A stretch of DNA of 64,000 nucleotides from Trypanosoma brucei (taxonomy: Eukaryota): the NCBI GenBank assembly GCA_000002445.1, contig CH464491.1, forward strand, positions 1,952,001 to 2,016,000. The letters run 5' to 3'. Made by a program: the position numbers and the translations under genes. The notes below the pieces were generated by a model. That model ran no database searches. It was given only the letters and a program-made list of their open reading frames with translations, and had not been told where the DNA came from. Shown here piece by piece: positions 8,532 through 56,477 of this stretch. Within the stretch, counting starts at the first letter, position 1, and each line of letters opens with the position of its first letter.

Positions 8532-8674
8532 ATCTACAGTTGGCACTTTAAAAGGCGGAAGAGGGAAAGCAATCGATTAAAACACAAAGTACATAGAAAC
8601 AACGACATATTCCGGCGTGATAGTTGTATCGCATACCAACTTCTTCCACTCCAAAATACTCGCAGCTTAGACAC

Positions 8675-11551: not shown

Positions 11552-12110
11552 TAACGTTAGGCGGGTAAGCGAGGACGACACCTAAATGCATATAGCAAAA
11601 AAAAATACTAAAATCAAAGCAGACACTGAATATAAGGTAAGCTGTGATGGGGGGGGGGAGTCCAAGACTCCTTAAAAGTTACCGCATCCAACAGCATACG
11701 GTATTCAACACAAGCTAATTAATTGAAATGCTAAGCTCGAATTCAGCATGGAAATAAGTTAATCAAACAATATAACCTCAATAAATTTATGTATGTACAT
11801 GTATACCAAACAGCAAACCTCATAAAGAAAGTTTCCCTGTCAGCTGAACGTGTACAACAACTCGCAAAAAGGGAAACTACACACTGTCAACGGTGTCATC
11901 ACCCATCGCCGGAAAAAAAAAATTACACCATTAGTAGGGAAAATAATCGAAAATGGGAGTGTGGGAGGGGAAGCCGGGGCAAAACGAAGACACTAGTAGA
12001 AAAAAAACACATACCCCAACTACAACACAAATTATAACCAACAACAGCATGAGTTGAAGTGATACCGACAGCCCAACCAAGCATCCGTAAATATATCTAT
12101 TAAACAACTG

Positions 12111-17316: not shown

Positions 17317-18181
17317 GAATGCAGTAATATCGCTAATAGGCAAGTATCTGTAGCCCCGCAAATCAGTGGACACACTCTCAAGGCGGCTATGTCAGTCTCC
17401 CGAATACCACTAAACGACTGCCACAATACTATGTCTTGATAGAGAAATAGAAGAACTACACATTTAAAGAATGCACTGCGATTTGCGCACGGAGCAGTAG
17501 CCCAATAGAACCAGATACACGGAATAATGGGGAGGCTACAAGGGGTTCACGGTGGACTGAGCAAACCCCTTTAGCAAACATAAGTTGCTACCAGAGTGAT
17601 CTATTCCACCCACTCACACACGCGGTGCAAAAAACAAAAAACGTCATCGTAATCCCGGCACCACCAAGCAAAGGGACAAAACACTCTGATCTTCGTGTAG
17701 AGCTTTTTCTTTTTACCTCACACAACGAGTAAGCAAAGCGTACAACCATGGAAAGAGCGGTTCTCACCCTAAACCAGGCCGTCACATAGCTGGTCCCCGC
17801 ACACACAGATATATGTGTTTTAATATAGTGTCAAAAACACTTGAGAGGGAGAAAGGGTTGAGGACAAAAAAATTGTTGGAAGGACATCCAATAAAAGGGA
17901 ACATAACCGAGTAAACGAAGCCAGCGAGAAAAACAACATGGGACGCAACTGAACGTCTAATAGAAAGAACCACCAACTCGGGTTGCAATGGGGGGGGGGC
18001 TTTCGAGACGTTGGCGGCCCCTCAGCACCCATCGGGAGTCACGGTACAAAAAGCAACGCTCAAGAAGGGAAGAACAACTCTGCACCTCGTTCTCGGATTT
18101 TCCAACGTTGCAAGAGTGCACGCCGCCACCTTGAGAGCAACCATCCGCGATGTTCAGCCCATCAACCGTCAGACATGGATG

Positions 18182-37151: not shown

Positions 37152-40100
37152 TTACTTCTTTCTCCGTACGTTGTCCCCCCGGTTGGCCGCCTTGTATTGT
37201 TTCTGCTCCACATTCGAAGCAGTCCTCAATAGCTTTTGGTCAACAGCAAATGTTACCGTCTTGTCAGGAACCGAAAATATGGGGAGTACGCCGTACGTTG
37301 ACATACTGTTCTTGAGCCACTCGACCAACTCGGGGGTAGTGGAGCGCTCCCCGTCAGCTGCAGGGAAAGGCACCTCCCCTGAATACAGCCGAACGCACTC
37401 TGCTACCTTCTTCGCTTCAGCATCCACTACCAATATGTGAAAGAGTGACCGTTTGATCACCGCGAAAAGTTTTTTTACTTCCTCGGCACGAACACGTTTT
37501 TCACTGTCCTTCAAGTAGAGGACGGGGTCGTCAGCGCGTTCAAAGCTACAATGCCTACGCACAACCCTGCAGACTTCCCGGGAGGTAATATCCACGGACT
37601 GAATGTTCATTTTTGTCTCGTGGAACAACGATATAGACGCTGACTGACTTCCAACTTGAAAAAGGGTTTGTATTCCCCTTGCCTTCATAGCCTTCCGGAA
37701 CCCGCGTACATCTTGGTCGATGCGAAAACATGCACGTATATTATCCAGCCACAGATTTGCAGAGACAGTAAGAGCGGAATACTTCTGACCTGGCGAGTAA
37801 ACGTCCTGAGGCCGAACCGCAACGCCGCTGAGAAGCAGTCCATCTGTTTGTGGGAACCGAACATGTTCACACACCTCACCAAGTGCGAAAAGATCAACAC
37901 TCAAGCAGACGGCTTGCACGTCGGCATTTCGGGCCCCACATTTACTTGTAAAATTTTCAACACCGCAGCAAAAGGCGATGGCGTGGCCCCTCTCATGCGT
38001 ACGGCACTCGAAGAAAACCCCGTAGTCAATGAACGACCTATCAACGGACGTTTCGGCGGGCTTCAGCCTTGGGTCGATGCAAACACGAACGTTCGATGCC
38101 ACCTGTTTCCCAAATAACTGCAGGGCCTCCGTTATCCTCAAGGTAAAAGTCTTCAATGCTTCTAACCGGTCATGCGAAGAGACGATGTGGTTGCCATCAG
38201 AGAGAGTGCTGTCAACTTTATCAAGAATGGGCCCAATGCTTTTTCCCGGTTCAATGGACTCACATAGGTCACCCAAGTGATCTAACGACTCAACGGAACC
38301 GACTGTTCTTGAATGAGTCGCAGCTAGCCAATCAGCGTGGGATACAATAATCTCCAGTTTGGACTTCAATTCAGCCACCGACAGGAGGTGGAAGAACGAA
38401 AGCAGGGGATCAAGGAACATTTCATCAACTATTCCAGGGGCACTCGACGGAGTGGTGAATACGGCATACGGCCGGGACCTGTAATGAAAATGATAGAAAG
38501 ATCCAATATGGTGATTTGTGAGTAGAGTGAGGTGGTATGCGGTAGCAAGCTGCGGCTGGTTAGGGAACGCCCACACATTGGAGTTCATGTCGATCAGACA
38601 CGATACGTCCTGTTCGCTCAGGAGGGTGTTCAGGGGGACCAAAGGGTCAACGGATGCCAAGGGCATAGCGCCATGAAGCATTCCTATAATATTCACTGCT
38701 TGGATAAGATCAAGTGTAACTGTATGGGTAAGTGCCTTAACGGCATCCTTTACCTGCGGTGGGGGTTTGCAGTGCTGTTTCACTGATGCCTGCTTCACGC
38801 AGTGAAGTACGCGACCAGAAAAGCGTTCACCGTGTCTTTTTATTGTTTCTAGAGCTTCAACCACGTCTGCGGGATCGCCGGGAAGGTCAGCCTTATTTAA
38901 TATTTCCTCCGACGTTCTCCGTTTTCCCGGATCCCGCTCCAGGAGACTTGCAATCACCTCAGCCATTCTCGGATTCCAGGCGTAAAACCATTGAGGAATC
39001 GGTTTTCCACGACTAATATCCGTCATTATGTTGAACCTTTCCCTGAATCCCTGTCCGGCAACAGCCAACCACATCTCAAGCGCTATCATACCCAAGCTGT
39101 ATTCATCCACACTGAAGTCATAACTCTCACCCCGCTCTTGTTCCGGTGCGCAGTAAACAACGGATCCCAGGTTGCCTGTCGGAGAAGGACCCACTTCAAG
39201 TTCATCCAGTGGTCGCACATCATTCAATTCCACATTACTTGGGCTATGCTTCATCGATCGGTGTAGTGTCCGCGCTAACCCAAAATCTGCCACGCGAATG
39301 GTACCAACGTCATCGCTGCTCACGGAGCTCTGCATCTCGAACAGGATGTTGTCCGGCTTAAGATCACGGTGGACTATGCCTTGCCTGTGAAAGTGAGACA
39401 CGACCGTCAGCAACTGACGAAATATTTTCGTTGCCACCTTGTCCCCGTTCCCTGCAGTAAGCAAACTACCTTCCTCTTTGTCGCACTGATCGATCAGATG
39501 CCGCAGGCTATGTTTGGAACACAATTCCATTTGAATGTAAAGTGTAGAAAATTCCTCCTCCTTGTGGGAGTGCATTGGGCTCTGTAAGTCATACAACAGG
39601 TTGCTCTCCTCACCATCATCATCTTCCGCAGAGGAAGAGCAGGAGTAGCATGTTGTGTTTGTTGTCTCCCCGCCACCCTCACCATAGTCGGAGGCGCCGC
39701 CGACCCTAATGCTACCACCGATAGTAGACCGGCGGTTTGAGTCGTAGCTGTGAGTGGTAGATCCATCACCATCGACACAATCGTCCTCAACCTCTTCATC
39801 GCCGTCGAGAACGTAGTCCAACAACTCATCGTCGCACCCCGGCTCGATCCATGCATCGTAGTACCGGACGATGTGTTTGTGGCTGAGAGCGGCCAAACTC
39901 TGAACCTCGCGCAGGGCCTTCTCTGCCTCATTTTTCCTTATCGCTATTTTCTTCACAGCATACAGACGACCATCAACCTTCTTCCGACAGACGTATACAG
40001 GAGCGAACCCACCAGATCCCAGAAGGCACTGCTCAATAAACTCGCTTCGGTACCGACCCGCTGACACTCTCCGGAACGTGCACGTGCCCTCTTCATGTGA

Positions 40101-40862
40101 CCACATCCACTTCATCAGAGGATCCGATCCATCGATGCACACCTGAATGGCATCGCTAAAGATTCGCTTGACGTACTCATACTTCCATGTCACGCATTTC
40201 TGCAAACCTTTTGGAATGAGTCTAGCATCGTTCAGCAAGTAGTTTACGAGTAACTGAAAATTACTGTTAGCTTCCTCCTTCGATTCAGGGTCTTTCAAAT
40301 GGCAACACTTGTTAAGTAAATGCAATGCCAGTACACTGAGCTTAACAACGTCACGTTTCAGCACGCTTTCCTCCGCTCCCGCGGGTGCCTTAGCATTTTC
40401 AATTTCCACCGTCGCTTGGGTTTGTGGGTGGCTATCCTCAGTAGATATCACTCGCTGCACAACTGATATGATCTGCATAATGCAGGGAGCCCCGGCAAGA
40501 AGACAAGGACTTATGGCATCTCTGATGTCCGTTTGGAGTTGTCCAATCTCCGCCTCACTTAGTACGCCATCAAGACCTACTGCTGCTTGGTGGGGAAAGA
40601 GAATACGGACCCTCGGTGCCACGAAGGGGTATCCACCAACGATGCTAACTTCCAACACCACACGCCGTGTGGGTTGCGTTGACGAATCAATGGTAAGCAG
40701 GACGACTGGGTGGAATCCTTCGCGCTCCACAATGTGAATGTCATCATAGTTCGCCCTTAGAAACTCGATTTCATCGGGTACCACATTGGTTACTTCGGTT
40801 TGGCCCTCTGAAATCAAGTCGAACGAAAGACATCCTTCAAACTTTCCCTCGTCTACGTGCAT
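37152..40862 (-). CDS. eIF2K1: GCN2-like eIF2alpha kinase (RWD + kinase with insert + HisRS-like region)
   Basis: N-terminal RWD-like EIEFLRANYDDIHIV. The kinase region has LGSGGFAPVYVCRK...AVKKI, a large acidic insert, then HRDLKPDNILF and DFGLAR. About 550 aa of C-terminal class-II-aaRS-like region follow. Confidence 0.7.
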   Translation of the reverse strand: MHVDEGKFEGCLSFDLISEGQTEVTNVVPDEIEFLRANYDDIHIVEREGFHPVVLLTIDSSTQPTRRVVLEVSIVGGYPFVAPRVRILFPHQAAVGLDGVLSEAEIGQLQTDIRDAISPCLLAGAPCIMQIISVVQRVISTEDSHPQTQATVEIENAKAPAGAEESVLKRDVVKLSVLALHLLNKCCHLKDPESKEEANSNFQLLVNYLLNDARLIPKGLQKCVTWKYEYVKRIFSDAIQVCIDGSDPLMKWMWSHEEGTCTFRRVSAGRYRSEFIEQCLLGSGGFAPVYVCRKKVDGRLYAVKKIAIRKNEAEKALREVQSLAALSHKHIVRYYDAWIEPGCDDELLDYVLDGDEEVEDDCVDGDGSTTHSYDSNRRSTIGGSIRVGGASDYGEGGGETTNTTCYSCSSSAEDDDGEESNLLYDLQSPMHSHKEEEFSTLYIQMELCSKHSLRHLIDQCDKEEGSLLTAGNGDKVATKIFRQLLTVVSHFHRQGIVHRDLKPDNILFEMQSSVSSDDVGTIRVADFGLARTLHRSMKHSPSNVELNDVRPLDELEVGPSPTGNLGSVVYCAPEQERGESYDFSVDEYSLGMIALEMWLAVAGQGFRERFNIMTDISRGKPIPQWFYAWNPRMAEVIASLLERDPGKRRTSEEILNKADLPGDPADVVEALETIKRHGERFSGRVLHCVKQASVKQHCKPPPQVKDAVKALTHTVTLDLIQAVNIIGMLHGAMPLASVDPLVPLNTLLSEQDVSCLIDMNSNVWAFPNQPQLATAYHLTLLTNHHIGSFYHFHYRSRPYAVFTTPSSAPGIVDEMFLDPLLSFFHLLSVAELKSKLEIIVSHADWLAATHSRTVGSVESLDHLGDLCESIEPGKSIGPILDKVDSTLSDGNHIVSSHDRLEALKTFTLRITEALQLFGKQVASNVRVCIDPRLKPAETSVDRSFIDYGVFFECRTHERGHAIAFCCGVENFTSKCGARNADVQAVCLSVDLFALGEVCEHVRFPQTDGLLLSGVAVRPQDVYSPGQKYSALTVSANLWLDNIRACFRIDQDVRGFRKAMKARGIQTLFQVGSQSASISLFHETKMNIQSVDITSREVCRVVRRHCSFERADDPVLYLKDSEKRVRAEEVKKLFAVIKRSLFHILVVDAEAKKVAECVRLYSGEVPFPAADGERSTTPELVEWLKNSMSTYGVLPIFSVPDKTVTFAVDQKLLRTASNVEQKQYKAANRGDNVRRKK

Positions 40863-41119: not shown

Positions 41120-43978
41120 CTAGACGGTGGGGCACGCAGATGTCACGCGGCGCACGCCTCGGGAAAGGAAGTGTAGGCTGGCCAAGTTTACCGTGGTGCG
41201 CGGAACCTTTTCTGCGACAGCCTTGTAACCAACCCTGGCCTCACTTACCGTTTTGTCCGCGTGGCAAGCAACGCAAAGTGTCTGTAGGTTGTCTAAATCA
41301 GAAGATCCCCCTCCTTGGGATACGGCTAGTATGTGATCTGCATTCCAGATGCTCCCCGGAGTAGGGTGCTCAACAATTCGGTTAAAAAGCACAGGGTGCT
41401 GTCGAAGTTGGGGGTGCAACCTGTCAAGTATATCTTCCCGTTCACTTCGACTAGTCGCAGCGACTGCTAAAGAATAAAGCAGTTCACAATCCACCTGACA
41501 AACCGAACAGATACCTTTGTCTACCTCCTGAACGCCCCTGCGGGCTGCAGAGCTGGACCGTTTGATAAAGAATACCCCGCGGCAGGCACCGCTACAAAAC
41601 ATCCGGGTATCATCGTCTATACGCACGACGCTGCCTGGTGAAATGAACTCCGAAGCTACCAGCGTACTGTCGCACTCCAAACACACCGGCAGAAAATGAG
41701 TTTCTAAAGGGACTAGCAATGCCCCGTAAGTGCGCTCGGGGAAATTGCGTTTCACTACCTTCCAGAAAAACACCCTGCCCAAGAGAATGTCGCTCTTGGC
41801 GTAACGGACAACTGTTTTCCGAGGTGCTCTCACCGGACGCCACGTAAAGTTAGATGGAAGCCAGGCGGCAGCCGTCCGCAGTCTCCGCCGTTCAACAGGA
41901 GATAACATATCGACATGGCTCAAGTAATCCCTCAGCTGCCTTGGAAACTCACCATCATGCCGCCAGTACTGCTGTGCCTCCTGAGTCGACAAACTCGTTA
42001 GATGCTTGCCTTCATGAACCACATGAATTCGACCTGTGTTGTGGCTGATACGGAAGAGAAGGGGTGCCGATAACCCTGATATGTCCAAAAAGGAGGGGGC
42101 TGGATGTCCCGCAGACGGAGTGGCTTCTTCCTCTAGTAACGCATTATGTACAGGCGCAGTGCCACTTAGGTAGCTTGCATCTAACGACAGCTTCACACCA
42201 TCGGTAATGCGCCTCACTGCTTGAAAAGATCGAGAAAGACGCGAAAACTGGGCCCCATCAAAGAAGGATCCCGTACTTATAATGTAATACAGAATGACAT
42301 GATTTTTCTGCCCAGGGCGGTGAAGCCGATCTTCCGCTTGCTGCATCCAACCGATGTCGGGCGGAAGTTCCGCAAACAACGCGCAGGAAGCACCTGTCAA
42401 CCGAACTCCAACCGCACAAGCAGTGATCCCGACAAGCGCTACAGAGACGTCCCCATCATTAAAACGTGAGAGCAGTTCCACTCTCGAGTTCATGGGAGTC
42501 CCTCCATCGATACGTATCCATGTAACCTTCTTATCGTTTACGTAAGTCGTCAGGCAATCCAAAAGATTAAGATGATGTGCAAAAAGCACAATTTTTCCAT
42601 GCTTGCAAAGCAAAAGGTCAACAATGTCTAGTATTTTTTCACGACTTTCAATCCAATTATCCGAATAAACCTTTTGGAAGAGGGACTTGTTCTTCTGACC
42701 CCTGATTGCATCAGTTGGAATACGCAAAATAACTCGTTGTTTCGTTGGCAAATCAACTAATGTTTCCGATTTAAGCCGACGAATCATGCAGGTTGCGTTT
42801 AGCAATGAATGCAATTCGGTACTTCGCGTACACTCAAATGTCCTAAAATATGGTGAGAACTCAATACGACAGTATCGCAAAGCAAATTCGAACCTTGAAG
42901 AGCCAAGCAAACCGGGACAGACCGTATCAACCTGGTTGAAAAGGTCAAAAGGGGTCGACAGCGAGGGAGTCCCGGTGAGAAGCAAACAATACTTTGTTCG
43001 CCTTCCGAGTTCACACAACAGGGTGGTGTAGTGTGCATCACAGGAAGCGTCAACTGAAGTATGGAGAATATGGCTTTCATCGACGACTAGGGAGCTCCAT
43101 TGACGACTCTTCATGTGGTTGGCCAACAAGGAAACCATATGAAAACTTGTGACAACAACCTTAGGTTCATCACTGCGGGAAAGGAAGTCACTCGAGGAAG
43201 TAATAACGCGAATATCGTCCATGTTCAGAACATCCATGAGCCATTTCTCCAACTCGTCCGCCCACATGTGCCGCAACGCGGCAGGGCAGACAATAAGTGC
43301 TGGAAAGGCGTTCAAGGCGGCCAAGGTTCCAATGGCTTGAAGGGTTTTACCAACACCCATTTCGTCAGCAAACATGGCCCGGCCACCGAATGACAACGCT
43401 TTACAAATCCCATCCACCTGATGCCGGTGTAACGCAGCCATAAGTTTTGGTGGCAGAAGATCCGGTAAATGGACAGCTTTGTTTTCTTTAACGGTTGATA
43501 TCGCTTCCCTGCAAACTCTTGAAGGCTCATTGACGTGGAGACGGTTTCCGCTCTCACCCGATAACATCCTAAGCTCATGCAGAAGGAGATCCAGTGAGTC
43601 AATGGAGTATCGAAAGCAGCCCTCTTGTATCATTGTCGACTCGCTCAAACTAAGTGGCAGCTCTTTCATAATTTGAAGGGAAGCTGAGGTAGTCATATTC
43701 ATGAAACCTAAGCGAACACATCTGTTGGTAAAATCGATTTCCACTTGCGCTATTTTGCAGTTATGTGTGGAAATCCGACCCGATATAACGGGGACAAATT
43801 CGATGAACCTTTCCCCCTCATTCAACTCTGCAACGTAATCACGAAGAACAGATTGCACGTTAAGAATTCCGTCAGGGCAACGGCACTCGAACACGCAACC
43901 AAAACGGGAAATCCTGAATAATCTCTGTGAACAGCAATCAAAGCAGTATTCCTGACCCCTTCGAAGTAGCTGCTCCAT
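41120..43978 (-). CDS. SNF2-family DNA-dependent ATPase with C-terminal HNH nuclease domain (ZRANB3/SMARCAL1-like annealing helicase)
   Basis: SNF2 motifs LADEMGVGKTLQAIG, DESHILH, LLLTGTPSLS. Helicase-C motif QAEDRLHRPGQ. C-terminal HNH motif CSVCQ...WNADHILAVSQGG...NLQTLCVACHADKT. Confidence 0.7.
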   Translation of the reverse strand: MEQLLRRGQEYCFDCCSQRLFRISRFGCVFECRCPDGILNVQSVLRDYVAELNEGERFIEFVPVISGRISTHNCKIAQVEIDFTNRCVRLGFMNMTTSASLQIMKELPLSLSESTMIQEGCFRYSIDSLDLLLHELRMLSGESGNRLHVNEPSRVCREAISTVKENKAVHLPDLLPPKLMAALHRHQVDGICKALSFGGRAMFADEMGVGKTLQAIGTLAALNAFPALIVCPAALRHMWADELEKWLMDVLNMDDIRVITSSSDFLSRSDEPKVVVTSFHMVSLLANHMKSRQWSSLVVDESHILHTSVDASCDAHYTTLLCELGRRTKYCLLLTGTPSLSTPFDLFNQVDTVCPGLLGSSRFEFALRYCRIEFSPYFRTFECTRSTELHSLLNATCMIRRLKSETLVDLPTKQRVILRIPTDAIRGQKNKSLFQKVYSDNWIESREKILDIVDLLLCKHGKIVLFAHHLNLLDCLTTYVNDKKVTWIRIDGGTPMNSRVELLSRFNDGDVSVALVGITACAVGVRLTGASCALFAELPPDIGWMQQAEDRLHRPGQKNHVILYYIISTGSFFDGAQFSRLSRSFQAVRRITDGVKLSLDASYLSGTAPVHNALLEEEATPSAGHPAPSFLDISGLSAPLLFRISHNTGRIHVVHEGKHLTSLSTQEAQQYWRHDGEFPRQLRDYLSHVDMLSPVERRRLRTAAAWLPSNFTWRPVRAPRKTVVRYAKSDILLGRVFFWKVVKRNFPERTYGALLVPLETHFLPVCLECDSTLVASEFISPGSVVRIDDDTRMFCSGACRGVFFIKRSSSAARRGVQEVDKGICSVCQVDCELLYSLAVAATSRSEREDILDRLHPQLRQHPVLFNRIVEHPTPGSIWNADHILAVSQGGGSSDLDNLQTLCVACHADKTVSEARVGYKAVAEKVPRTTVNLASLHFLSRGVRRVTSACPTV

Positions 43979-45253
43979 GGCCCCAAGGTCGTCAGTGCCA
44001 CCTGAAATATATAAAGAAGATTCACATAAAATCCACTACCCCTATGTGTATGCAACAGTCAAAACCGCCATAGAGGATGAGAATCAAAGAAAGGACCAAT
44101 GCATGCATATATTGTGGTGCGCGTCTAGTAACACACCACAGTGACAGCACCACTTCAAACTAAAAAAAAAAAGCTCGGCCTCTCAGTCTTTTCGTGCAGA
44201 GTCATGCAACTTTGCATGCGAAAGAACTGTGGGCAGCATATTTTCACCCTGCGGCAAACACTGCTCGTGGTCTCAGTGATATAAACGCCCTTAAATGTTT
44301 GGAAACATATTCATACGTAAAACATCGACGCGGCATATTTAAATTAATATGCCAGTTTCTTCAATAAACACATAGCAAAAGCGATTTGCTACCAACCAAC
44401 GAAAGATCAAGTACGGCTTCTGATACCTTTACAGCGCCGATGCTGGAAGGCACTTGGTGGTCTCCGATGGCGGCGAGGACCAGATCTATCCCCTGTCGCT
44501 GGAGAACACCAAAACCTTTTCGGTTCCACGATAACAACTAGAAACTTACTGTTCAACTCACTCAATGTTGTGAGCAGCGTGCCGTTTGGGGATCAAAGAT
44601 TATACAGGAAATCCGAAAGCACAAGTACGTTTCGGTTTCTCCAAACCCTTGTGCGCTTCGAGCTACCGGACAGCAGTGGGAGCCCCGTACACACACAGAC
44701 ACACACACGCACGCACAAATACAAATAATTTTCTTCGACACATTTGAGAATCAAACACAATCTGGATCCTTTGCCTCCTCTACCATGGGTCCGTATATAA
44801 TAAACCGCACCGGGACCTTATGCAGTGAAGTTAGGATGCGTCACTGGTTGTCTAGCTCTGAGCGGTTCTTGTTACTGATTTCCCCCTAAAATAAATTATG
44901 TTTCAGTGAAATAAAAAGATTAAGACACATATTTACATCAAATCACTATGTCACACTTAATCAAACCCCTTAATGCAGCAACTTTACTCCCAAAAGAGAA
45001 ATATCAGAGGGGGAATAGCACTACAACAGGACCAATAAGTGGGCAAAAGAGCATCGTTCCATTTGGTTGAAGAAAAAAAAACATTTTGAGCACAGAAAAA
45101 AATTACCAAAAAAGCCGTCGCTTTCTTGGTACGTTACGTTCTTATATAACAATGTAAACGCTATTACAGGGTGTTGTCTTCCCTATTCTCTCCCCTACAA
45201 CTAACCATTTTCGCTATGTTCCCCTATGGAAAAAAAGAAGGATACTCCGCCCT

Positions 45254-46436: not shown

Positions 46437-47612
46437 TTACACAAGTCGTGTCAGACGCGCAACCACGCTATCAACAAGTCCCAGGACTACGAACAAGCCA
46501 CCAATTATTCCACAGAGTTGCACCAAAAAGTGGTATATCGGTTCTCGTTTGAAATTATTGTTCACCTGCATTGGAAAAAAATCGAAGGAAAACTCGACAG
46601 AAGGAAAACCACCATAGCCAATAGCCACTTCACGGGAATTCCAGTTTGCGCTGTATTCATATGTCGGGGGGTGGAGGCCAGATGAAGCGCCACTTCCGTA
46701 GGTGGTAGGCACTATGTTCAAATAATACCTGACCTTCATGAATCTTCCACTGCCGTTAAATCGTTGTTTCTCCAGTGGATTTAAAACACCTCGGCGAGAA
46801 TGACGTCTTACGCTTTCGTCCCCAATAGAAAATTTATTTATCACATGACTTGCATCAAATTTCAAAAGGTCCTCCATCTTGATTGTGTTTTTGATGACCT
46901 TTGGAGTGAAAAATATAACGCCACTCACTTTTCTTACATTCAAGGCACCCCTGTAATTACAGCCGGGGTTTTCCAGAGATAGTTCACCGATGCATTGCTC
47001 GACCACATTTTTATTCGGCCTCGGCAGTCCTTTTCTATCGTGTTCGGCCATAACTTCTTCGCAAGTGTTGCAGCAATTCTTACCTCCAGCGATGGCTTTA
47101 TTACCAGTAAAACACCTTCCGCAAAAGTCGGGGGAGTTGGGGTCATTTCTCCTAGTATATAAAGGGCTCCTGGGGTCTGTGAAAAAGCGTCGGGTGCCCA
47201 AATAGGCAAGATTTCCCCCTACATCCACGGGAGTTTTTAACAGGTTTTCCGTAACATTAATACTAAAAGTTCCGCTAACATCACTCACATCGAGGAAAAG
47301 ATCGTGACACGGCTCTTGCATGAATGTAATGTCAATATTAAAAGTGATATTCTTCTCAGGGCTGGTATCCACTGATAGTTCCGTCTTGTAGGCATTCCAA
47401 CCTAAAGTGTAGGACATAACTTCCCACGATGCAAGAAGCCCAACCGCAAAAACTGTTATAATGCTAATAATAGCACCAGCTCGGGTCTGGGATCGGCAAT
47501 AATCCTCCTTTGGTTTCGTGAAAAGGTCTACAGCTGCAACTTTCCGAAGCAAAAAGGACGACGGAACTGGCTCGTCGTCGCTTTCGCTGCTGCGTTTCCG
47601 GAGGCCTATCAT
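46437..47612 (-). CDS. ERGIC3/Erv46-family ER-Golgi vesicle transporter protein
   Basis: N-terminal DLFTKPKEDY...TRAGAIISIITVF transmembrane segment, a Cys-rich lumenal CGRC...CCNTCEEV block, and a C-terminal transmembrane segment IIGGLFVVLGLV. Confidence 0.7.
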   Translation of the reverse strand: MIGLRKRSSESDDEPVPSSFLLRKVAAVDLFTKPKEDYCRSQTRAGAIISIITVFAVGLLASWEVMSYTLGWNAYKTELSVDTSPEKNITFNIDITFMQEPCHDLFLDVSDVSGTFSINVTENLLKTPVDVGGNLAYLGTRRFFTDPRSPLYTRRNDPNSPDFCGRCFTGNKAIAGGKNCCNTCEEVMAEHDRKGLPRPNKNVVEQCIGELSLENPGCNYRGALNVRKVSGVIFFTPKVIKNTIKMEDLLKFDASHVINKFSIGDESVRRHSRRGVLNPLEKQRFNGSGRFMKVRYYLNIVPTTYGSGASSGLHPPTYEYSANWNSREVAIGYGGFPSVEFSFDFFPMQVNNNFKREPIYHFLVQLCGIIGGLFVVLGLVDSVVARLTRLV

Positions 47613-50600
47613 TGAAATAAGTTATACGGCTGTTTCTTCATACATTGAAAAGGAAGAAAGCACTCGGTGCTGCTGTCAGTAGAAGCAGAAAATGAACGCA
47701 GAGCCACAAGGGGCTACTTGCAGACACCTCATGGCATTGATGCTAAAGTGTCTCAACAGCGTGACCGCATCTGAATAAGACATTACTCCTGGTAGTTACA
47801 CATTCCATCCCAAATCAAAATACAAACACGTGGAGTGGAAGGGAAGGGGAGGAGCACAAGAACAAACTGCGATCATGCCCGTAGAGAGGTCTTGGAGGGC
47901 AGGATAACTCGCTGACGATCGAATCTGCGCCATCCGCCAGAATAAGGCAATTCAACAAACACATGTAAGATTCCGCAAAAAAGATTACAGCGCTAAATGT
48001 TTACGTGCAGCGGCCCCTACAATTCTCTTGGGTCATTGACAGCACCTAGACTTCTCTTGTCAGCCACTCAGGCACATTTGTCCCCACCTTGTTTCCTTCA
48101 GGTGAGATATTTTTTTCACTTGTCCCCCCTACTCTGGAGCAACATTTGTTGCGCGGGTGTAACTCCCAAACTTTAGAACTCCCCACTGAAATTCATTACA
48201 CTGCAGTAGACATTCACCAGGATCACGACCGACCACCACGACGAAGCACACAACAAGGTGCTAGCTGGTGCTTATGATGTCATCCCGCCTTTGAGCACTC
48301 GATGCACACTCTTACTTTGGCGACTACGGGCTGCTTTTGAATAGTATTCGCTGTCTTTTAAAATACTAGGTGCTTGGCGGACCAAAGAGCTTTTTTTCTT
48401 TGGTGAAAGGGGGGTCAGACTGAAGAGGGGCCCACCGTTCATCCTCCCCCTAACACCATGGAAAAAGTTAATCACCATACAAGGTTTAACACCCTCTTTC
48501 AACAAGCCTTCTCCGTGGTTCATGGCGCTTTATCCGCAGTAGAGCTGACCGCACCCACGCGCACGCCGTTGGGAGTTATTTCCCCCTCTTGCTGGTCCTC
48601 GAATAAAAAGCATACCACGAAATCGGATAAACCCTGCTTTCGCTGGAGAATCAGCGGGCATTCCAGCGTACTCGATGCTAACTCAGGTGGTTGGCGACCC
48701 GTTAAGGAGGAAAGGCAACAACATCAGCTTTGGGGTTTGATAAGAGCGCCCACGCGACCTTCAGCACGTGCAGATGCGCTTTCTGGGATACCTGCAGTGT
48801 GTTTCCGTTTTTGAGCTCACTGTCCGAACTAGACACGTGCCCAACTTCATATGGATCGCGCAGGAGACCTGGTGTTCTCTCAAAGCCAAAGAGGGTGGCA
48901 TCGGCAAAACACCCGTACAATTAAAAATCTAGCCTTGCCATCGTGTCCACAGCTCCCTTGTGTGCGGAGGAGAGCAAACTCACGAGGATATCTTAATATC
49001 CGAGCAAGCGGCTGCTCCAAAGTGTAAAGAATACCGATACTTCTGGGTAATCGTATAGCGTCCGGCAACGTCGACAGGCGCTGTTTCCATCTCAGATAAT
49101 GCCTGTTGAGCTCATGATCGGAGACTGGTTGCGTTTGAACCTTGGTCCCGTGCGTTTCCTGTGGCCGTTAACCGTCATCCGACCACCGCTGGCGTGCCGT
49201 CTTCATAGGGGAACTCTTCATAACAGGGAATGCGCACAAAAAAGGAAAAAAAGCACAAAGAAACACCGAGGACGGCGGGAAGGTGTAGGCAGAGCGATTG
49301 CCATATCCTGGCGGATTTGTCAGGACGTCAGGTATTTCATCTAGAGCCGCGGTGTTAACGTTCCAGGGAAATGGAAAAAGGACGGAGTAATTCGAGGGAA
49401 CGGGGGGAGCCCCACGTCGGTACAGAAGAAGGAGCGTGGCAATAGAAGGTGCATCCATGTCGCTTGCAGGTGTTGCCACAAAAGAGTCAGGAAAGGGGGA
49501 AGAGAATGACGGTGTTTAGCGATTCATCATCCCCTCTAATTGGCGTAAAAGCTGCCCCCTGAGGTAAATGGGAGTACCTTGCAACACGCACGGAGAAGCA
49601 CAGCATAATTAACCGGAGGATGAATGCCTTTAGACCTGCAAAGGACCAAAAGCGGAAAGAGGAAGAAAAGTAACTTGGAGAGGGCGCCGTTTTCGAAATA
49701 CGCCAAATCAACCTCGTGTTTTGTATTCGCAGTGCCACGCGGTACAACCCCTTAAGCCGTCTGAACCGAGATTCTGAATCAATCTCAAGTGAAAGGTAGG
49801 AGCATTTCTGCCCCCTCGTAGCGGTTGTGGGGAAGGGGAGTGCCATCCCGAAATGCAGGTGGCGTGCCGTCAAACCCTACGAAACACGGTGTAGTAGTTC
49901 CCAAGGTACCTGTTCATTCTCCCTTAGTGACTCTCGACACTAGTGCTTTTAAGGCGTCACCACCCGGCGATCCTCTTCTTTTGTGCTACGCTGTGCGGTC
50001 AGACCTAGTAAGAATCGCGAACCCCGCGATGAATAAGCGTCTACAGGAAAAGGAAAGGAAAAGAAAAACGGCAGGGACTGTGATAATCGCACCGTTAGAG
50101 TGCCAACAGCGCGTGAATCAACTATAGTTGCCATGCCTCTGAGAAGAAGTTTGAGTAACGGAAGCTGCTGTTGAGATTCATGGACTTGTCGCGGGTGATC
50201 GCACCCCTCATGTACAGTTCTGGGTTGAAAAGAGAGTGAGAGGAGGGCAAGGCGAAGCAGATAGGCTTGATTTTCCCCGCGGCTCGTTTATTATTCCTTT
50301 TTCCTTCGCATTGCACCGGTAAGAACCCCGAAGGTAGCATTACATTTTCCCTGCTGCAGGGGCATGTGCTGCCGGTTGAGTCGAGCGTTGCATCGGGCTG
50401 TCTCACCGAGCCAAATGGTGTGGGTGTGCCACCACCTCTTCTCCGAGGAGTGGAGTTCCTAAGCATCGCCCATCCGGCTGGCCCCAGAAATATTATTTCA
50501 GTCTTTTAGGTTACAGTGGTGAAGTGCCACCCGAGCTCATATTGGCCGAACCGTAGGCGGAAGGGGAATTGTGAACTTTCATGGCCCTCTCTTTTTTTTT

Positions 50601-51566
50601 TCCTTGGTGACCGCCGCCTTCCCTGAGCCCTCTCTGATTGGGGGGAGCGGAAGGGGATCCCGCCGGTTTCATCTCCGTCGTTGGAGAGTTACTTCCCCGG
50701 CCCCTTCGATCGATGTTTCCTCGTCCGTTTCTTTGGTTTATCGCACCTGTGTGGACGGGTTGTTGGTTTCTGGTACTTCGTCTTTTGATGTTCGAGCACG
50801 CCCTTTAACCTCTAGGTTGGACTCCTTCGACGCACGCATGTTCTTCCACAGTGCGGGCGCCGAGGTTTTTTTGTTTTGGCACCCCTTCTACCTGCGTGTA
50901 CAGCCAACGTGGATCAGCTGGTGGACACAGTTGGCCTCCGGGCGCGTCCTCTTTTAGCGGTATTCTCTGAAGGCGGGTGGTTAAGACTCATTTTTTATTT
51001 GTGCCGCTGTTACTTCAATGTGATCCTGACGCATCGTGCATCTGCTTTGTTTGTGCTAGCTGATCGTTGCCACTGTTGGTTTGTTGCTGTCCCTATGTTG
51101 TTGTCTCTTACAGGGTGTGGTGGTAGTGTTTGCTTTACGTTCGTATGGTGAATGCCTTCTACGATGTTTTGATTTCCGGACGTTTTGGGTCTTTGGTTTT
51201 GTTAGTGTTTAGTGTTGACAAAGTTGTTAACGTTGGTGCTGCAGCCGACGTGGGACTGTGTGGGCCGTCGGTACTATTGGTGTGTGTAGCTCTCCCTCTT
51301 GGCTTCGTTTCAACAGCCCTTTCACGTAGCAGGTAACGTGGTTGCTGTACCTTTGAGATGTATATATATATATATTGGAAAGAATTGTCCTACAAAAGGG
51401 ACAAGGGCAGCTGATTTACTTGAAGTAGAGAGGGTCGTTGGGAAGAGGGTTGTTTGGCTTCATTCTCCCAGATTAGCTAATTGGCGACAAAACGCAGTTT
51501 GCTACCATCTTTTTTGCTCTGCCTTTTCATGTTCTCCTACACTCTATAAAGCTGTTGCTAAACGCG
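47613..51566. promoter_or_regulatory. Divergent strand-switch region (probable RNA pol II bidirectional transcription start region)
   Basis: All genes below 47612 are on the minus strand and all genes above 51567 are on the plus strand. The intervening 3.9 kb has no ORF longer than 130 aa. Confidence 0.7.
50570..51360 (+). promoter_or_regulatory. GT-rich tract upstream of the first plus-strand gene
   Basis: The plus strand is strongly G+T-biased, for example gtgtggtggtagtgtttgctttacgttcgtatggtg...ggtctttggttttgttagtgtttagtgttg, and ends in a (TA)8 repeat. Confidence 0.4.
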
Positions 51567-55166: not shown

Positions 55167-56477
55167 ATGAAACGAAGGAGGGACAGTAACGGTAAGTCCA
55201 TTGCGGCACTTAGGGCTGGGGTGGCAGCGCTGAGCGTATCTAGCAATATAGCTTCTAGGGAGCTCACCTGTCGTGATTCCCATGTTAAAGCTATATTAGA
55301 CTTCTTGAATGATAAAGTTCACCCTGTCATGCAGGTTTTCGGTATGCCGGGTACGGGAAAGACAGCGTCAGTGAACCACGCCCTCGCTCTTCTTGCGAGC
55401 TCGTCACCAGCAGGGTCGAAGCCCACAGCTGTCTTTCTTAATGGGTACATTATACAAAAAACATCTGATATATACTGGACCTTGAACTCACACCTAAGCA
55501 AAACTCGGTTAAAACATGCTGAAAATTGCTTACCGGAGCAATGTCCTGCTCTGATCGAAAAGAGATTTAAGCAAGGTTGGGGGAGTAGCACTACGCCCTT
55601 ATGTGTGATAGTTGTCGATGAAGTTGACAAAGTCCTTAAAAAGCACAACAAGGCGTTTTTCAGGATAGTAGATTGGTTAAGTCTACCGTATGCGTTTTGT
55701 AAACTGATAACAATTTCAAATAGCATGGAACTGGCAGCTGATGCGAAAACGAGAAGTCGACTGGACATAACGAAACGTCTCGTCTTCGAACCATATAGTC
55801 TGCCTGAGCTCAAGGAAATTATTCTTCGAAGAGTCAGTCACATCAAACCTACGTTATTTGCAGAGAAAGCAATCAACTATCTATGTAACCAAACTGCATC
55901 GCACTACGGGGATGTGAGACGTCTTTTACAATCTGCTTCCTCCGCCATTTGCGGTCTCATGATGAGAATAGAGGAGGGTTACAAGTTGCCGGAGAAGCAT
56001 GATGGCTTGCTAACTGTAAAGGATGTTCACTCAGTTGTTCGCCAAATATTTCACGATCGCTTTGTTGAGTTTATCCAAACTATTCGTCTTCCCGTAGTGT
56101 TTATCAGCGTTGCTGTCATTGCAGTAGAGACAGCAAGGCTTTTTCGAGCGAACTGCGAGGACAGCCGACTACCCATAGATAGCTTGTTTACGGCAACGAA
56201 GAGAGCCCAAGAGCGTTTTGGCTCAGTTTTTGCAGACCTACATGCCGTCACTTTGAACTATGGGGCGTACCTAGAAATAGTAGAGATGCTGCGGGAGGTA
56301 GCACTGATTGACGTTTCGGTAGGTGAAGAGCGCATTCCCGTCAAAACGGTTCAGTCACTACTCGAGGCCACTGAGAGGGCACACGCGTCAATGCTACAAC
56401 CATTCCAAACAGTCGTCGATGCATGCAAGCTCCACGATGACTTTGGTACGGGGATATGCCCACTGTTTTCGATATAG
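55167..56477 (+). CDS. ORC1/CDC6: ORC1/CDC6 AAA+ replication initiator
   Basis: Walker A GMPGTGKTA, Walker B VIVVDEVD, a sensor-2-like GDVRRLLQ, and a C-terminal winged-helix-like region. At 436 aa it is consistent with the trypanosomatid single-domain Orc1/Cdc6. Confidence 0.8.
   Translation: MKRRRDSNGKSIAALRAGVAALSVSSNIASRELTCRDSHVKAILDFLNDKVHPVMQVFGMPGTGKTASVNHALALLASSSPAGSKPTAVFLNGYIIQKTSDIYWTLNSHLSKTRLKHAENCLPEQCPALIEKRFKQGWGSSTTPLCVIVVDEVDKVLKKHNKAFFRIVDWLSLPYAFCKLITISNSMELAADAKTRSRLDITKRLVFEPYSLPELKEIILRRVSHIKPTLFAEKAINYLCNQTASHYGDVRRLLQSASSAICGLMMRIEEGYKLPEKHDGLLTVKDVHSVVRQIFHDRFVEFIQTIRLPVVFISVAVIAVETARLFRANCEDSRLPIDSLFTATKRAQERFGSVFADLHAVTLNYGAYLEIVEMLREVALIDVSVGEERIPVKTVQSLLEATERAHASMLQPFQTVVDACKLHDDFGTGICPLFSI

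What the first reader, a model, noticed from the sequence alone, without database searches (positions are those of the whole stretch)
41120..43978. SNF2 ATPase fused to an HNH nuclease: a ZRANB3/AH2-like fork-remodelling enzyme
The protein combines a complete SNF2 motor (DESH box, helicase-C QxxDRxHRxGQ) with a C-terminal HNH motif (HxxxxxxGG...N...CxxCH). This architecture is characteristic of ZRANB3-type annealing helicases with structure-specific endonuclease activity. The ~180-aa N-terminal region could be HARP-like substrate recognition. Neither a PCNA-interacting PIP box nor an NZF ubiquitin-binding finger is obvious by eye, so a kinetoplastid version may be recruited differently.
Basis: partly seen in the sequence, partly recalled or inferred. 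Interest (0 to 1): 0.5.

Follow-up and report, generated by a model that had tools for sequence, protein, structure and literature searches.

The report
Trypanosome ZRANB3-type helicase–nuclease gene
This is a real, conserved trypanosome gene for a DNA-fork-remodelling motor fused to an HNH DNA-cutting domain; it is a clear relative of human ZRANB3 that keeps the whole catalytic core, lacks the human protein's PCNA/ubiquitin docking motifs, and carries its own zinc-binding N-terminal domain.

Summary
The ORF is real: 41120-43978, minus strand, 952 aa. It is 100% identical to an annotated Trypanosoma brucei-group 'SNF2 DNA repair protein, putative'.

Pfam finds SNF2, Helicase_C and HNH above their cut-offs, and all ATPase motifs are intact.

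The motor belongs to the SMARCAL1/ZRANB3 subfamily. In a motor-only tree the kinetoplastid clade branches outside a 100%-supported (metazoan ZRANB3 + SMARCAL1) group.

No PIP box, NZF finger or canonical APIM is present.

Residues 1-170 form a confidently modelled zinc ribbon plus alpha/beta domain. By sequence it occurs only in this protein's orthologues (9 clusters in 1.84 billion) and shows no significant HARP similarity.

This is an uncharacterised member of a known family with lineage-specific ends. Interest is moderate to low.

The parts
41120..43978 (-). Whole gene: 952-aa SNF2-HNH protein (stop codon at 41120-41122)
   Evidence: ORF listing. 100% identical to the annotated T. equiperdum/brucei-group 'SNF2 DNA repair protein, putative', with orthologues throughout the trypanosomatids.
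43871..43951 (-). N-terminal zinc-ribbon-like unit, residues ~10-36: C12-x2-C15 ... F21-[RK]-x-S-[RK]-[FY]-G-C28-V-[FY]-x-C32-x-C34
   Evidence: All five Cys are 16/16 conserved and the hairpin residues are invariant. AlphaFold models a beta-hairpin at 20-24/27-31 with pLDDT ~90. The only hits are sub-threshold ones to zinc-ribbon families and structures. Metal binding is inferred.
43484..43870 (-). Lineage-specific N-terminal helix plus alpha/beta domain, residues ~37-165 (H41-53, then beta-beta-alpha-beta-beta-alpha, then a strand/helix linker with invariant P152)
42689..43456 (-). SNF2 ATPase lobe 1, residues ~175-430 (Q-motif LHRHQ 183, motif I 205, Ia 228, II VDESH 299, III 334)
   Evidence: Pfam SNF2-rel_dom E 5.9e-27. 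Motifs located. 35% identity to lizard ZRANB3 motor, E 5e-66.
42254..42628 (-). SNF2 ATPase lobe 2 (Helicase_C), residues ~451-575 (motif IV 465, V 517, VI QAEDRLHRPGQ 547)
   Evidence: Pfam Helicase_C E 1.2e-11. Motifs located.
42071..42193 (-). Short linker, residues ~596-636, in the place where vertebrate ZRANB3 has ~280 residues carrying the PIP box and NZF finger
   Evidence: hhalign leaves the vertebrate linker positions unmatched. No PIP or NZF by regex or by Pfam.
41699..42070 (-). ZRANB3-type substrate-recognition domain (SRD), residues ~637-760, starting LLFRISHNTGRIHV
   Evidence: hhalign against ZRANB3 gives probability 100%, E 2.2e-46 over 637-923. F642, S645, T648, R650 and R725 are invariant across kinetoplastids, plants, protists and metazoa. 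The model is confident except for the loop 717-730.
41579..41689 (-). Conserved zinc ribbon between SRD and HNH, residues ~764-800 (C766-x2-C769 ... F794-C795-x3-C799)
   Evidence: The four Cys and F794 are invariant in all 22 aligned ZRANB3-type proteins. Aligns with vertebrate ZRANB3 in BLASTP. Weak TRASH-like Pfam hit, E 0.008, below cut-off.
41234..41554 (-). HNH nuclease domain with the ZRANB3-specific helical insert, residues ~809-915 (zinc site C824, C827, C902, C905; catalytic D881, H882, N897, H906)
41141..41197 (-). Conserved C-terminal tail motif, residues 928-946: TTVNLASLHFLSRGVRRVT (TTV-x2-[AS]-S-x-H-F-x2-[KR] ... RRVT)
   Evidence: Conserved across kinetoplastid orthologues. Modelled as a short low-confidence helix (929-938) in a disordered tail. 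HFLSR lies 30 residues after C-x2-C-H, while vertebrate RFFVK (the APIM) lies 29 after. It does not meet the APIM consensus R/K-F/W/Y-L/I/V/A-L/I/V/A-K/R (PMC6337749).

Best explanation
The gene encodes the trypanosomatid member of the ZRANB3 (annealing helicase 2) family.

Shown here:
- An intact SNF2 double-stranded-DNA translocase of the SMARCAL1/ZRANB3 subfamily.
- It is followed, in the same order as in human ZRANB3, by the substrate-recognition domain, a four-Cys zinc ribbon, and an HNH nuclease with all catalytic and zinc-binding residues conserved.

Inferred from the human enzyme:
- The SRD positions the motor at a branched DNA junction such as a stalled replication fork or splayed arm.
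- ATP-driven translocation re-anneals or reverses the fork.
- The HNH domain makes an ATP-dependent, structure-specific nick next to the junction.

What differs (shown):
- The PIP box, the NZF ubiquitin-binding finger and a canonical APIM are absent.
- The protein has a kinetoplastid-restricted N-terminal zinc ribbon plus alpha/beta domain, and a conserved C-terminal tail motif.

Inferred from those differences: recruitment to forks does not use the metazoan route through K63-polyubiquitinated PCNA. It probably depends on these lineage-specific ends. The Arg/aromatic-rich zinc ribbon is a candidate single-stranded-DNA or junction binder. The HF-x2-[KR]...RRVT tail is a candidate partner-docking motif, possibly for PCNA.
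For: - ORF and motifs.
- Domains: Pfam SNF2, Helicase_C and HNH above cut-off.
- Family: outside kinetoplastids, the named best hits are almost all called ZRANB3 or SNF2/HNH proteins; most of the top 120 carry PF00176 + PF01844 + PF00271, E 1e-103 to 1e-62.
- Pairwise comparison with lizard ZRANB3: motor 35% identity, E 5e-66; zinc ribbon + HNH 34% identity over 153 aa, E 2e-21.
- Profile-profile: residues 637-923 against ZRANB3 from SRD to HNH, probability 100%, E 2.2e-46.
- Invariant residues across four eukaryotic lineages in the SRD, zinc ribbon and HNH.
- Experimentally essential human residues D1020, H1021, N1036 and H1045 (PMC12841045) correspond to D881, H882, N897 and H906.
- Subfamily: motor-only BLAST gives ~200 bits to ZRANB3 and SMARCAL1 alike, against ~40 + 47 bits per lobe for the best PDB remodeler.
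- Missing recruitment motifs.
- Lineage-specific N-terminus.
Against: - No biochemical or genetic data exist for this protein; I found no paper on it. Fork remodelling and nicking are extrapolated from the human enzyme.
- The human SRD residues whose mutation kills activity (L760/D761/I762 and W790/S791/S792) are only partly conserved in the hhalign register (Q-E-A and V-D-M).
- On the motor alone the protein is not closer to ZRANB3 than to SMARCAL1. The NJ tree places it outside a (metazoan ZRANB3 + SMARCAL1) clade, so it is a co-orthologue of both and not a 1:1 ZRANB3 orthologue.
- Absence of PIP and APIM by regex does not exclude PCNA binding through a degenerate motif. A rice SMARCAL1-subfamily protein binds PCNA through a non-canonical C-terminal PIP (PMC8974069).
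Confidence: 0.85

Rival explanations
1. It is functionally a SMARCAL1 equivalent: an annealing helicase guided by an N-terminal HARP-type domain, as the first reader suggested for residues 1-180. On this view the HNH domain is an accessory, and the N-terminal domain is a highly diverged HARP.
For: - The motor is as similar to SMARCAL1 (192 bits) as to metazoan ZRANB3 (204 bits), and the protein predates their split.
- Plant and protist ZRANB3-like proteins do carry a HARP-like domain at exactly this position (hhalign probability 82-93%, E 1e-5 to 3e-7; shuffled controls <= 13.8 against 42).
- The kinetoplastid domain has a compatible beta-beta-alpha-beta-alpha order.
- When anchored by the motor start, hhalign extends through the HARP C-terminal half in a consistent register.
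Against: - Pfam HARP gives no hit at E <= 1-10 in any of 19 orthologues.
- Unanchored hhalign against HARP gives probability 0.2-0.6%, with scores 12.6-13.8 no better than column-shuffled controls (max 9.6-15.8).
- There is no RPA32C-type N-terminal motif.
- A complete ZRANB3-type SRD and a catalytically intact HNH are present.
Confidence: 0.1
2. It is a nucleosome or chromatin remodeler of one of the classical SNF2 subfamilies (ISWI, INO80, CHD1L, SMARCAD1, Rad54/ERCC6), with an unrelated C-terminal zinc cluster.
For: The best solved-structure hits of the full-length protein are SMARCAD1, INO80, CHD1L, ERCC6 and ISWI, at E 1e-24 to 1e-21.
Against: - Those hits cover only the generic ATPase lobes, at ~40-58 bits each. 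That is three- to four-fold lower than the hits to ZRANB3 proteins.
- No full ZRANB3 or SMARCAL1 motor appears among the PDB matches listed, so the ranking may simply reflect what has been solved.
- No chromo, SANT, HSA, bromo or other remodeler accessory domain is found.
- The C-terminal cluster is a bona fide ZRANB3-type HNH.
Confidence: 0.02
3. It is a horizontally acquired bacterial or phage-type SNF2-nuclease, related to defence-system helicases such as DISARM DrmD, Zorya ZorD or DpdE, and not a eukaryotic replication-stress enzyme.
For: NCBIfam lists partial matches to SCO1167-family helicase, DrmD, DpdE, RapA, ZorD and IscB (HNH).
Against: - All those matches are far below the curated cut-offs (for example 56 bits against 950 for DrmD) and cover only generic motor or HNH segments.
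- All named top homologues are eukaryotic.
- The HNH carries the ZRANB3-specific ~50-residue helical insert and matches 5MKW more than twice as well as any bacterial or phage HNH.
- The gene sits in a normal trypanosomatid polycistron among housekeeping genes.
Confidence: 0.01
4. The HNH is a degenerate, non-catalytic module, so the protein acts only as a translocase or annealing helicase.
For: There is no direct evidence. It is possible in principle because nuclease activity has not been measured. Human ZRANB3 constructs with only the ATPase and SRD retain fork remodelling (PMC12841045).
Against: D881, H882, N897, H906 and the four zinc-binding Cys are invariant across kinetoplastids, plants, protists and metazoa. 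The HNH core is the most confidently modelled part of the protein, at pLDDT 96-98.
Confidence: 0.03

Closest known systems
Human/vertebrate ZRANB3 (annealing helicase 2, AH2)
   Different: - No PIP box, no NZF finger and no canonical APIM.
- The motor-to-SRD linker is about 40 residues instead of about 280.
- There are ~170 extra N-terminal residues forming a zinc ribbon plus alpha/beta domain, whereas the vertebrate motor starts at the N-terminus.
- A distinct conserved tail, HF-x2-[KR]...RRVT.
- Phylogenetically it is a co-orthologue of ZRANB3 + SMARCAL1, not a 1:1 orthologue.
Plant and protist 'ZRANB3-like' SNF2-HNH proteins (for example the Selaginella, moss and Arabidopsis-type proteins P0032, P0024, P0026)
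   Same: - Same core of motor, SRD, zinc ribbon and HNH, with the same invariant residues.
- They also lack the NZF.
- They also have about 200 residues before motif I.
- They are the best non-kinetoplastid hits.
   Different: - The plant N-terminal extension is an RPA32C-motif-like TEEQRxRAEANRLAALAKRK (likeness from memory) plus a HARP-like domain.
- The kinetoplastid extension shows no profile similarity to it (probability 0.4%) and begins with a zinc ribbon.
SMARCAL1 (HARP, annealing helicase 1)
   Same: Same SNF2 subfamily: motor-only similarity of 192 bits, 32.6% identity. Both have a structured domain immediately N-terminal to the motor.
   Different: SMARCAL1 has HARP domains (PF07443 in the retrieved sequences) and no SRD or HNH. 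Here HARP is not detectable, while the SRD and HNH are present.

Membership tests
ZRANB3 (AH2) family | SNF2 ATPase core of the SMARCAL1/ZRANB3 subfamily with intact motifs I-VI | tested here: met
   - Pfam SNF2 and Helicase_C.
- Motifs intact.
- 35% identity, E 5e-66 to lizard ZRANB3 motor.
- ~200 bits to ZRANB3 and SMARCAL1 motors, against ~40-58 bits per lobe to other SNF2 subfamilies in the PDB.
Caveat: no tree with outgroup subfamilies could be built.
ZRANB3 (AH2) family | Substrate-recognition domain (SRD) C-terminal to the motor (human N720-T869, per PMC12841045) | tested here: met
   hhalign probability 100%, E 2.2e-46, with the alignment starting at LLFRISHNTGRIHV = LMFCASRNTDRIHIY. 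F642, S645, T648, R650 and R725 are invariant across lineages. The experimentally tested human residues LDI and WSS are only partly conserved.
ZRANB3 (AH2) family | C-terminal HNH nuclease with a ZRANB3-type helical insert and catalytic D-H...N...H plus a CxxC/CxxC zinc site | tested here: met
ZRANB3 (AH2) family | PIP box Q-x-x-[VILM]-x-x-[FY]-[FY] (human 519-526) | tested here: not met
   There is no strict or relaxed PIP match in the window protein, and none conserved (three or more sequences at one alignment position) among the 22 kinetoplastid-type orthologues. The same regex finds QHDIRTFL and QHDIRSFF in the vertebrate controls.
ZRANB3 (AH2) family | NZF (RanBP2-type) ubiquitin-binding zinc finger (human 621-650), which gives the protein its name | tested here: not met
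   No PF00641 hit and no W-x-C-x2-C...C-x2-C pattern. PF00641 is found only in the metazoan proteins tested, not in plant, protist or kinetoplastid ones.
ZRANB3 (AH2) family | C-terminal APIM, R/K-F/W/Y-L/I/V/A-L/I/V/A-K/R (consensus from PMC6337749) | tested here: not met
   No canonical APIM in any orthologue. A conserved HF[LTVA]x[KR] sits at the same offset from C-x2-C-H as vertebrate RFFVK, but it fails positions 1 and often 4 of the consensus. Whether it binds PCNA cannot be tested here.
ZRANB3 (AH2) family | ATP-dependent fork regression/annealing and structure-specific endonuclease activity | not testable with these tools
   Needs recombinant protein. Inferred only from conserved catalytic residues.
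SMARCAL1 (HARP) family | One or two HARP domains (PF07443) immediately N-terminal to the motor | tested here: inconclusive
- For: same position, a compatible secondary-structure order, a consistent register when anchored by the motor start, and a HARP-like domain at this position in plant and protist homologues.
SMARCAL1 (HARP) family | N-terminal RPA32C-binding motif; no nuclease domain | tested here: not met
   No TEEQR...NR..AL..R-type motif in any kinetoplastid orthologue, although 42 plant ZRANB3-like proteins have one. An HNH nuclease domain is present. The identity of the motif as RPA32C-binding rests on memory.
HLTF/Rad5 family | HIRAN domain and a RING finger inserted in the SNF2 motor | tested here: not met
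   No HIRAN or RING family among Pfam hits at E <= 1. No HLTF/Rad5 among the top homologues.

The most novel reading that the evidence does not exclude
The kinetoplastid enzyme, like the plant one, may be a surviving composite ancestor of SMARCAL1 and ZRANB3. On this reading:
- A junction-recognition domain in front of the motor (here a cryptic, strongly diverged HARP preceded by a new Arg/aromatic zinc ribbon that binds single-stranded DNA at the fork) works together with the SRD and HNH behind it.
- Recruitment to stalled forks is independent of ubiquitinated PCNA and is mediated by the N-terminal module and/or the HF-x2-[KR]...RRVT tail.

That would mean the PCNA-ubiquitin route is a metazoan add-on. 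It would also mean animals split one ancestral enzyme (RPA/HARP front end plus SRD/HNH back end) into SMARCAL1 and ZRANB3 by partitioning its domains.
Probability: 0.3. Interest if true: 0.55.

Novelty: new member of a known kind. Interest (0 to 1): 0.33.

Why it matters
Fork reversal enzymes have not been characterised in trypanosomatids. In these parasites, replication stress and break repair are thought to drive antigenic variation and genome plasticity (general knowledge, not tested here).

Naming this generically annotated gene as the trypanosomatid ZRANB3-type helicase-nuclease gives a concrete candidate to test by knockout, tagging and biochemistry.

It also extends the family to Discoba. 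A 2026 review lists ZRANB3-like genes in five non-metazoan groups and not in this one (PMC12841045). That strengthens the inference that the motor-SRD-HNH core was already present in the last eukaryotic common ancestor.

The comparison shows that the catalytic core is constant while the recruitment ends are lineage-specific:
- metazoa: PIP, NZF and APIM;
- plants: an RPA-motif-like N-terminus plus a HARP-like domain;
- kinetoplastids: a zinc ribbon plus alpha/beta domain and an RRVT tail.

The kinetoplastid-only N-terminal domain is parasite-specific at the sequence level.

Tried and rejected
- **HARP in the N-terminus.** Pfam at E <= 10 on 19 orthologues found only sub-threshold zinc-ribbon families. 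hhalign against a real SMARCAL1 HARP alignment gave probability 0.2%. An apparently good hit (probability 88-96%) turned out to be driven by the ~28 residues of the motor Q-motif included in the segments. With that anchor removed the score fell to 12.6-13.8, no better than column-shuffled controls.
- **N-terminus compared with other regions.** Against the plant and protist N-terminal extension: no similarity. Against the protein's own SRD: none.
- **SRD fold.** No PDB match beyond the HNH part of the model.
- **PDB sequence search with the N-terminal profile.** Nothing.
- **Motor-only BLAST to separate ZRANB3 from SMARCAL1.** It cannot: 204 against 192 bits.
- **Literature.** Nothing for ZRANB3 + Trypanosoma, SMARCAL1 + T. 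brucei, or a guessed old gene ID, Tb11.02.5060. The 'SNF2 DNA repair protein' discussed in PMC10639054 is a different gene, Tb927.3.5440, which is ATRX-like. The primary HARP-structure and SRD papers could not be retrieved.
- **A supposed tandem duplication of a DEAD-box gene elsewhere in the window.** Checked and rejected; only the pyrophosphatase gene is duplicated.
- **P0108.** I first grouped it with metazoan ZRANB3. It clusters with protist sequences, so it was excluded from the support calculation.
Full report
**1.

A single ORF occupies 41120..43978 on the minus strand (952 aa; ATG at 43978; the end coordinate includes the stop codon). It lies in a long minus-strand gene array typical of trypanosomatids. 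Its neighbours are unrelated housekeeping genes.

The protein is 100% identical to a database entry named 'SNF2 DNA repair protein, putative' from Trypanosoma equiperdum (T. brucei group). Full-length orthologues exist at 58-66% identity in other Trypanosoma species and at about 40% in Phytomonas, Leptomonas and Lotmaria.

- Motif I DEMGVGKT (205), motif II VDESH (299), motif III LTGTP (334), motif VI QAEDRLHRPGQ (547).
- D881-H882-x6-GGG...N897...C902-x2-C905-H906 (numbering checked).

Pfam scores SNF2-rel_dom (E 5.9e-27), Helicase_C (1.2e-11) and HNH (3.9e-08; 33.7 bits against a cut-off of 21.4) above their curated thresholds.

**2. The resemblance to ZRANB3 goes far beyond an HNH motif**

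Outside kinetoplastids, the best database hits are plant, protist and animal proteins, E 1e-103 to 1e-62. Most carry SNF2 + HNH, and nearly all that a source names are called ZRANB3 or SNF2/HNH proteins.

Against lizard ZRANB3, BLASTP gives two blocks: the motor (35% identity, E 5e-66) and a 153-residue C-terminal block (34% identity, E 2e-21). The second block covers an upstream C-x2-C...F-C-x3-C zinc ribbon as well as the HNH.

A profile-profile comparison of the kinetoplastid post-motor region with the same region of other ZRANB3 proteins gives probability 100%, E 2.2e-46. The alignment starts at LLFRISHNTGRIHV (residue 640), opposite vertebrate LMFCASRNTDRIHIY, which lies near the beginning of the ZRANB3 substrate-recognition domain. 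The human SRD is N720-T869 according to PMC12841045.

In a 22-sequence alignment spanning kinetoplastids, plants, protists and vertebrates, the following are invariant:
- SRD: F642, S645, T648, R650, R725.
- Zinc ribbon: C766, C769, F794, C795, C799.
- HNH: C824, C827, D881, H882, G889-891, N897, C902, C905, H906.

**3. The nuclease domain is a ZRANB3-type HNH**

- The only significant solved-structure sequence match of residues 590-952 is the human ZRANB3 HNH domain (5MKW, E 8.7e-16). It includes the ~50-residue helical insert between the first C-x2-C and the D-H dyad.
- An AlphaFold model of residues 628-952 is confident (mean pLDDT 82; 96-98 in the HNH core).
- In the human enzyme, D1020A, H1021A and H1045A abolish nuclease activity and N1036A reduces it (PMC12841045). 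With identical spacing (+15 and +24 from the His) these are D881, H882, N897 and H906 here.

The domain is an HNH, and there is also a separate conserved zinc ribbon in front of it.

**4. The ATPase subfamily**

Solved SNF2 remodelers (SMARCAD1, INO80, CHD1L, ERCC6, ISWI) match only the generic lobes, at about 40-58 bits each.

To compare with SMARCAL1, I used a SMARCAL1 motor segment written from memory purely as bait. This retrieved 120 real database sequences, the named ones called SMARCAL1 and most carrying the HARP Pfam domain.

Motor-only BLAST of the T. brucei protein gives:
- about 204 bits to metazoan ZRANB3;
- 196 bits to plants;
- 219 bits to protists;
- 192 bits to SMARCAL1.

The motor therefore belongs to the SMARCAL1/ZRANB3 subfamily but cannot by itself choose between the two.

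A bootstrapped neighbour-joining tree of 35 motors (394 columns, 200 replicates) gave these supports:
- SMARCAL1 monophyletic: 100%.
- Metazoan ZRANB3 monophyletic: 100%.
- The two together: 100%.
- Kinetoplastid-type clade: 99%, branching among the non-metazoan SNF2-HNH proteins.

This agrees with the review's statement that SMARCAL1 is a choanozoan innovation that split from ZRANB3. The trypanosome protein is thus a co-orthologue of both that retains the ZRANB3 architecture.

Caveats: the method uses simple distances, there are no outgroup subfamilies, and the rooting is at midpoint.

**5. What is missing**

The window protein has no strict or relaxed PIP box, no canonical APIM and no NZF pattern, and none is conserved among the 22 kinetoplastid-type orthologues. 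The same scans find the PIP and NZF in the two vertebrate controls.

Pfam finds the RanBP-type finger only in metazoan ZRANB3, not in plant, protist or kinetoplastid proteins.

The motor-to-SRD linker is about 40 residues. Vertebrates have about 280 there.

The C-terminal tail is nevertheless conserved: TTV-x2-[AS]-S-x-H-F-x2-[KR]...RRVT (residues 928-946).
- It is modelled as a short, low-confidence helix in a disordered tail.
- Its H-F core lies 30 residues after C-x2-C-H. The vertebrate APIM (RFFVK) lies 29 residues after.
- It fails the published APIM consensus R/K-F/W/Y-L/I/V/A-L/I/V/A-K/R (PMC6337749).
- I treat it as a candidate docking motif of unknown partner.

**6. The N-terminal 170 residues**

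*Distribution of the extension.* Plants, many protists and kinetoplastids all have about 200 residues before motif I. Metazoan ZRANB3 has about 50.

*Structure.* The kinetoplastid extension models confidently (pLDDT 85, pTM 0.70). It consists of:
- a beta-hairpin flanked by Cys knuckles;
- a helix (41-53);
- a beta-beta-alpha-beta-beta-alpha domain (75-139);
- a strand/helix linker into the motor.

*Conservation.* C12, C15, C28, C32 and C34 are 16/16 conserved, within an invariant F-[RK]-x-S-[RK]-[FY]-G-C-V-[FY]-x-C-x-C hairpin. This is a zinc-ribbon signature. The only database echoes are sub-threshold zinc-ribbon families and structures.

*Restriction.* An exhaustive HMM search of 1.84 billion representative proteins with this domain's profile finds 9 clusters. 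Five are kinetoplastid or kinetoplastid-like orthologues already seen. Four are unnamed; one of these places the domain internally, and one is a 174-aa fragment.

*HARP?*
- Pfam gives no hit.
- Profile-profile comparison against real SMARCAL1 HARP gives probability 0.2-0.6%, no better than shuffled controls once the motor Q-motif anchor is removed.

I conclude that the HARP-like idea is unproven. Position and secondary-structure order are compatible with a very diverged HARP, and I put that at roughly even odds.

**7. A by-product**

The plant and protist ZRANB3-like proteins do have a HARP-like domain at this position: probability 82-93%, E 1e-5 to 3e-7 without the anchor, score 42 against <= 13.8 in 20 shuffles.

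Forty-two plant sequences also begin with TEEQRxRAEANRLAALAKRK. From memory, this resembles the RPA32C-binding motif of SMARCAL1.

Plants thus combine SMARCAL1-type and ZRANB3-type modules in one protein. This suggests that animals partitioned an ancestral composite enzyme.

**8. Mechanism**

Shown:
- An intact SNF2 translocase.
- A ZRANB3-type SRD.
- A zinc ribbon.
- A catalytically complete HNH.

Inferred from human ZRANB3 (PMC12841045):
- The SRD places the motor at a fork junction.
- ATP-driven translocation reverses or re-anneals the fork.
- The HNH nicks next to the junction in an ATP-dependent way.

Inferred from the missing PIP, NZF and APIM:
- Recruitment does not follow the metazoan K63-polyubiquitin-PCNA route.
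- It likely uses the N-terminal zinc ribbon/alpha-beta module (a candidate ssDNA or junction binder) and/or the conserved tail.

**9. Novelty and verdict**

I found no publication that characterises this gene or calls it a ZRANB3 homologue. The one paper that discusses a T. brucei 'SNF2 DNA repair protein' concerns a different, ATRX-like gene.

[quoted passage not shown] It does not report them in Discoba.

However, the gene is annotated, its SNF2 + HNH architecture is visible in precomputed Pfam tables, and the family is well known.

The finding is a new, uncharacterised member of a known family, with lineage-specific ends that are of moderate interest.

Noticed in passing
Loci outside the window: proteins P0032, P0024, P0026 and ~40 other plant ZRANB3-like sequences: Plant and protist ZRANB3-like proteins combine two module sets in one polypeptide. 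At the N-terminus they have a TEEQRxRAEANRLAALAKRK motif (from memory, similar to the SMARCAL1 RPA32C-binding motif) and a HARP-like domain (hhalign against SMARCAL1 HARP2: probability 82-93%, E 1e-5 to 3e-7; shuffled controls far lower). They also carry the ZRANB3 SRD + HNH. This hints that SMARCAL1 and ZRANB3 arose by partitioning a composite ancestor.
   Followed up: partly
window 7287-8546 (-) and 12121-13380 (-): Two copies of a 419-aa inorganic pyrophosphatase gene, 98% identical at protein level, lie within a 1477-bp DNA repeat of 99% identity. They are separated by a DEAD-box helicase gene (9899-11581). The 542-aa ORF at 15745-17373 is not a paralogue of that helicase.
   Followed up: yes
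window ~47600-51500, and 55167-56477 (+): A divergent strand-switch region separates the long minus-strand gene array (1-47.6 kb) from a plus-strand array (from ~51.5 kb). The GC skew changes sign at about 49-50 kb. Just downstream is a 436-aa AAA+ protein (Pfam AAA, AAA_16, AAA_22). Its size and position suggest ORC1/CDC6; that identification is from memory and unverified.
   Followed up: no
window 37152-40862 (-): The adjacent gene on the 3' (downstream) side of the ZRANB3-like gene encodes a 1236-aa protein with an N-terminal RWD domain and a protein kinase domain (GCN2-like eIF2-alpha kinase architecture). No functional link to the ZRANB3-like gene is evident.
   Followed up: no
protein P0122: One of the nine database clusters containing the kinetoplastid N-terminal domain places it at residues 620-802 of a 992-aa protein instead of at the N-terminus. 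This is probably a fused or mis-predicted gene model, but it could be a different architecture.
   Followed up: no
annotation of the window gene 41120-43978 (-): The product name 'SNF2 DNA repair protein, putative' is shared with at least one unrelated T. brucei gene, Tb927.3.5440, which PMC10639054 shows to be ATRX/ARIP4-like. The label therefore hides two different SNF2 subfamilies.
   Followed up: partly
window 44160-44175 (minus strand, ~190 nt upstream of the ATG): A run of 11 T's on the coding strand upstream of the start codon. It is compatible with a polypyrimidine tract guiding trans-splicing of this gene's mRNA. This was not analysed.
   Followed up: no
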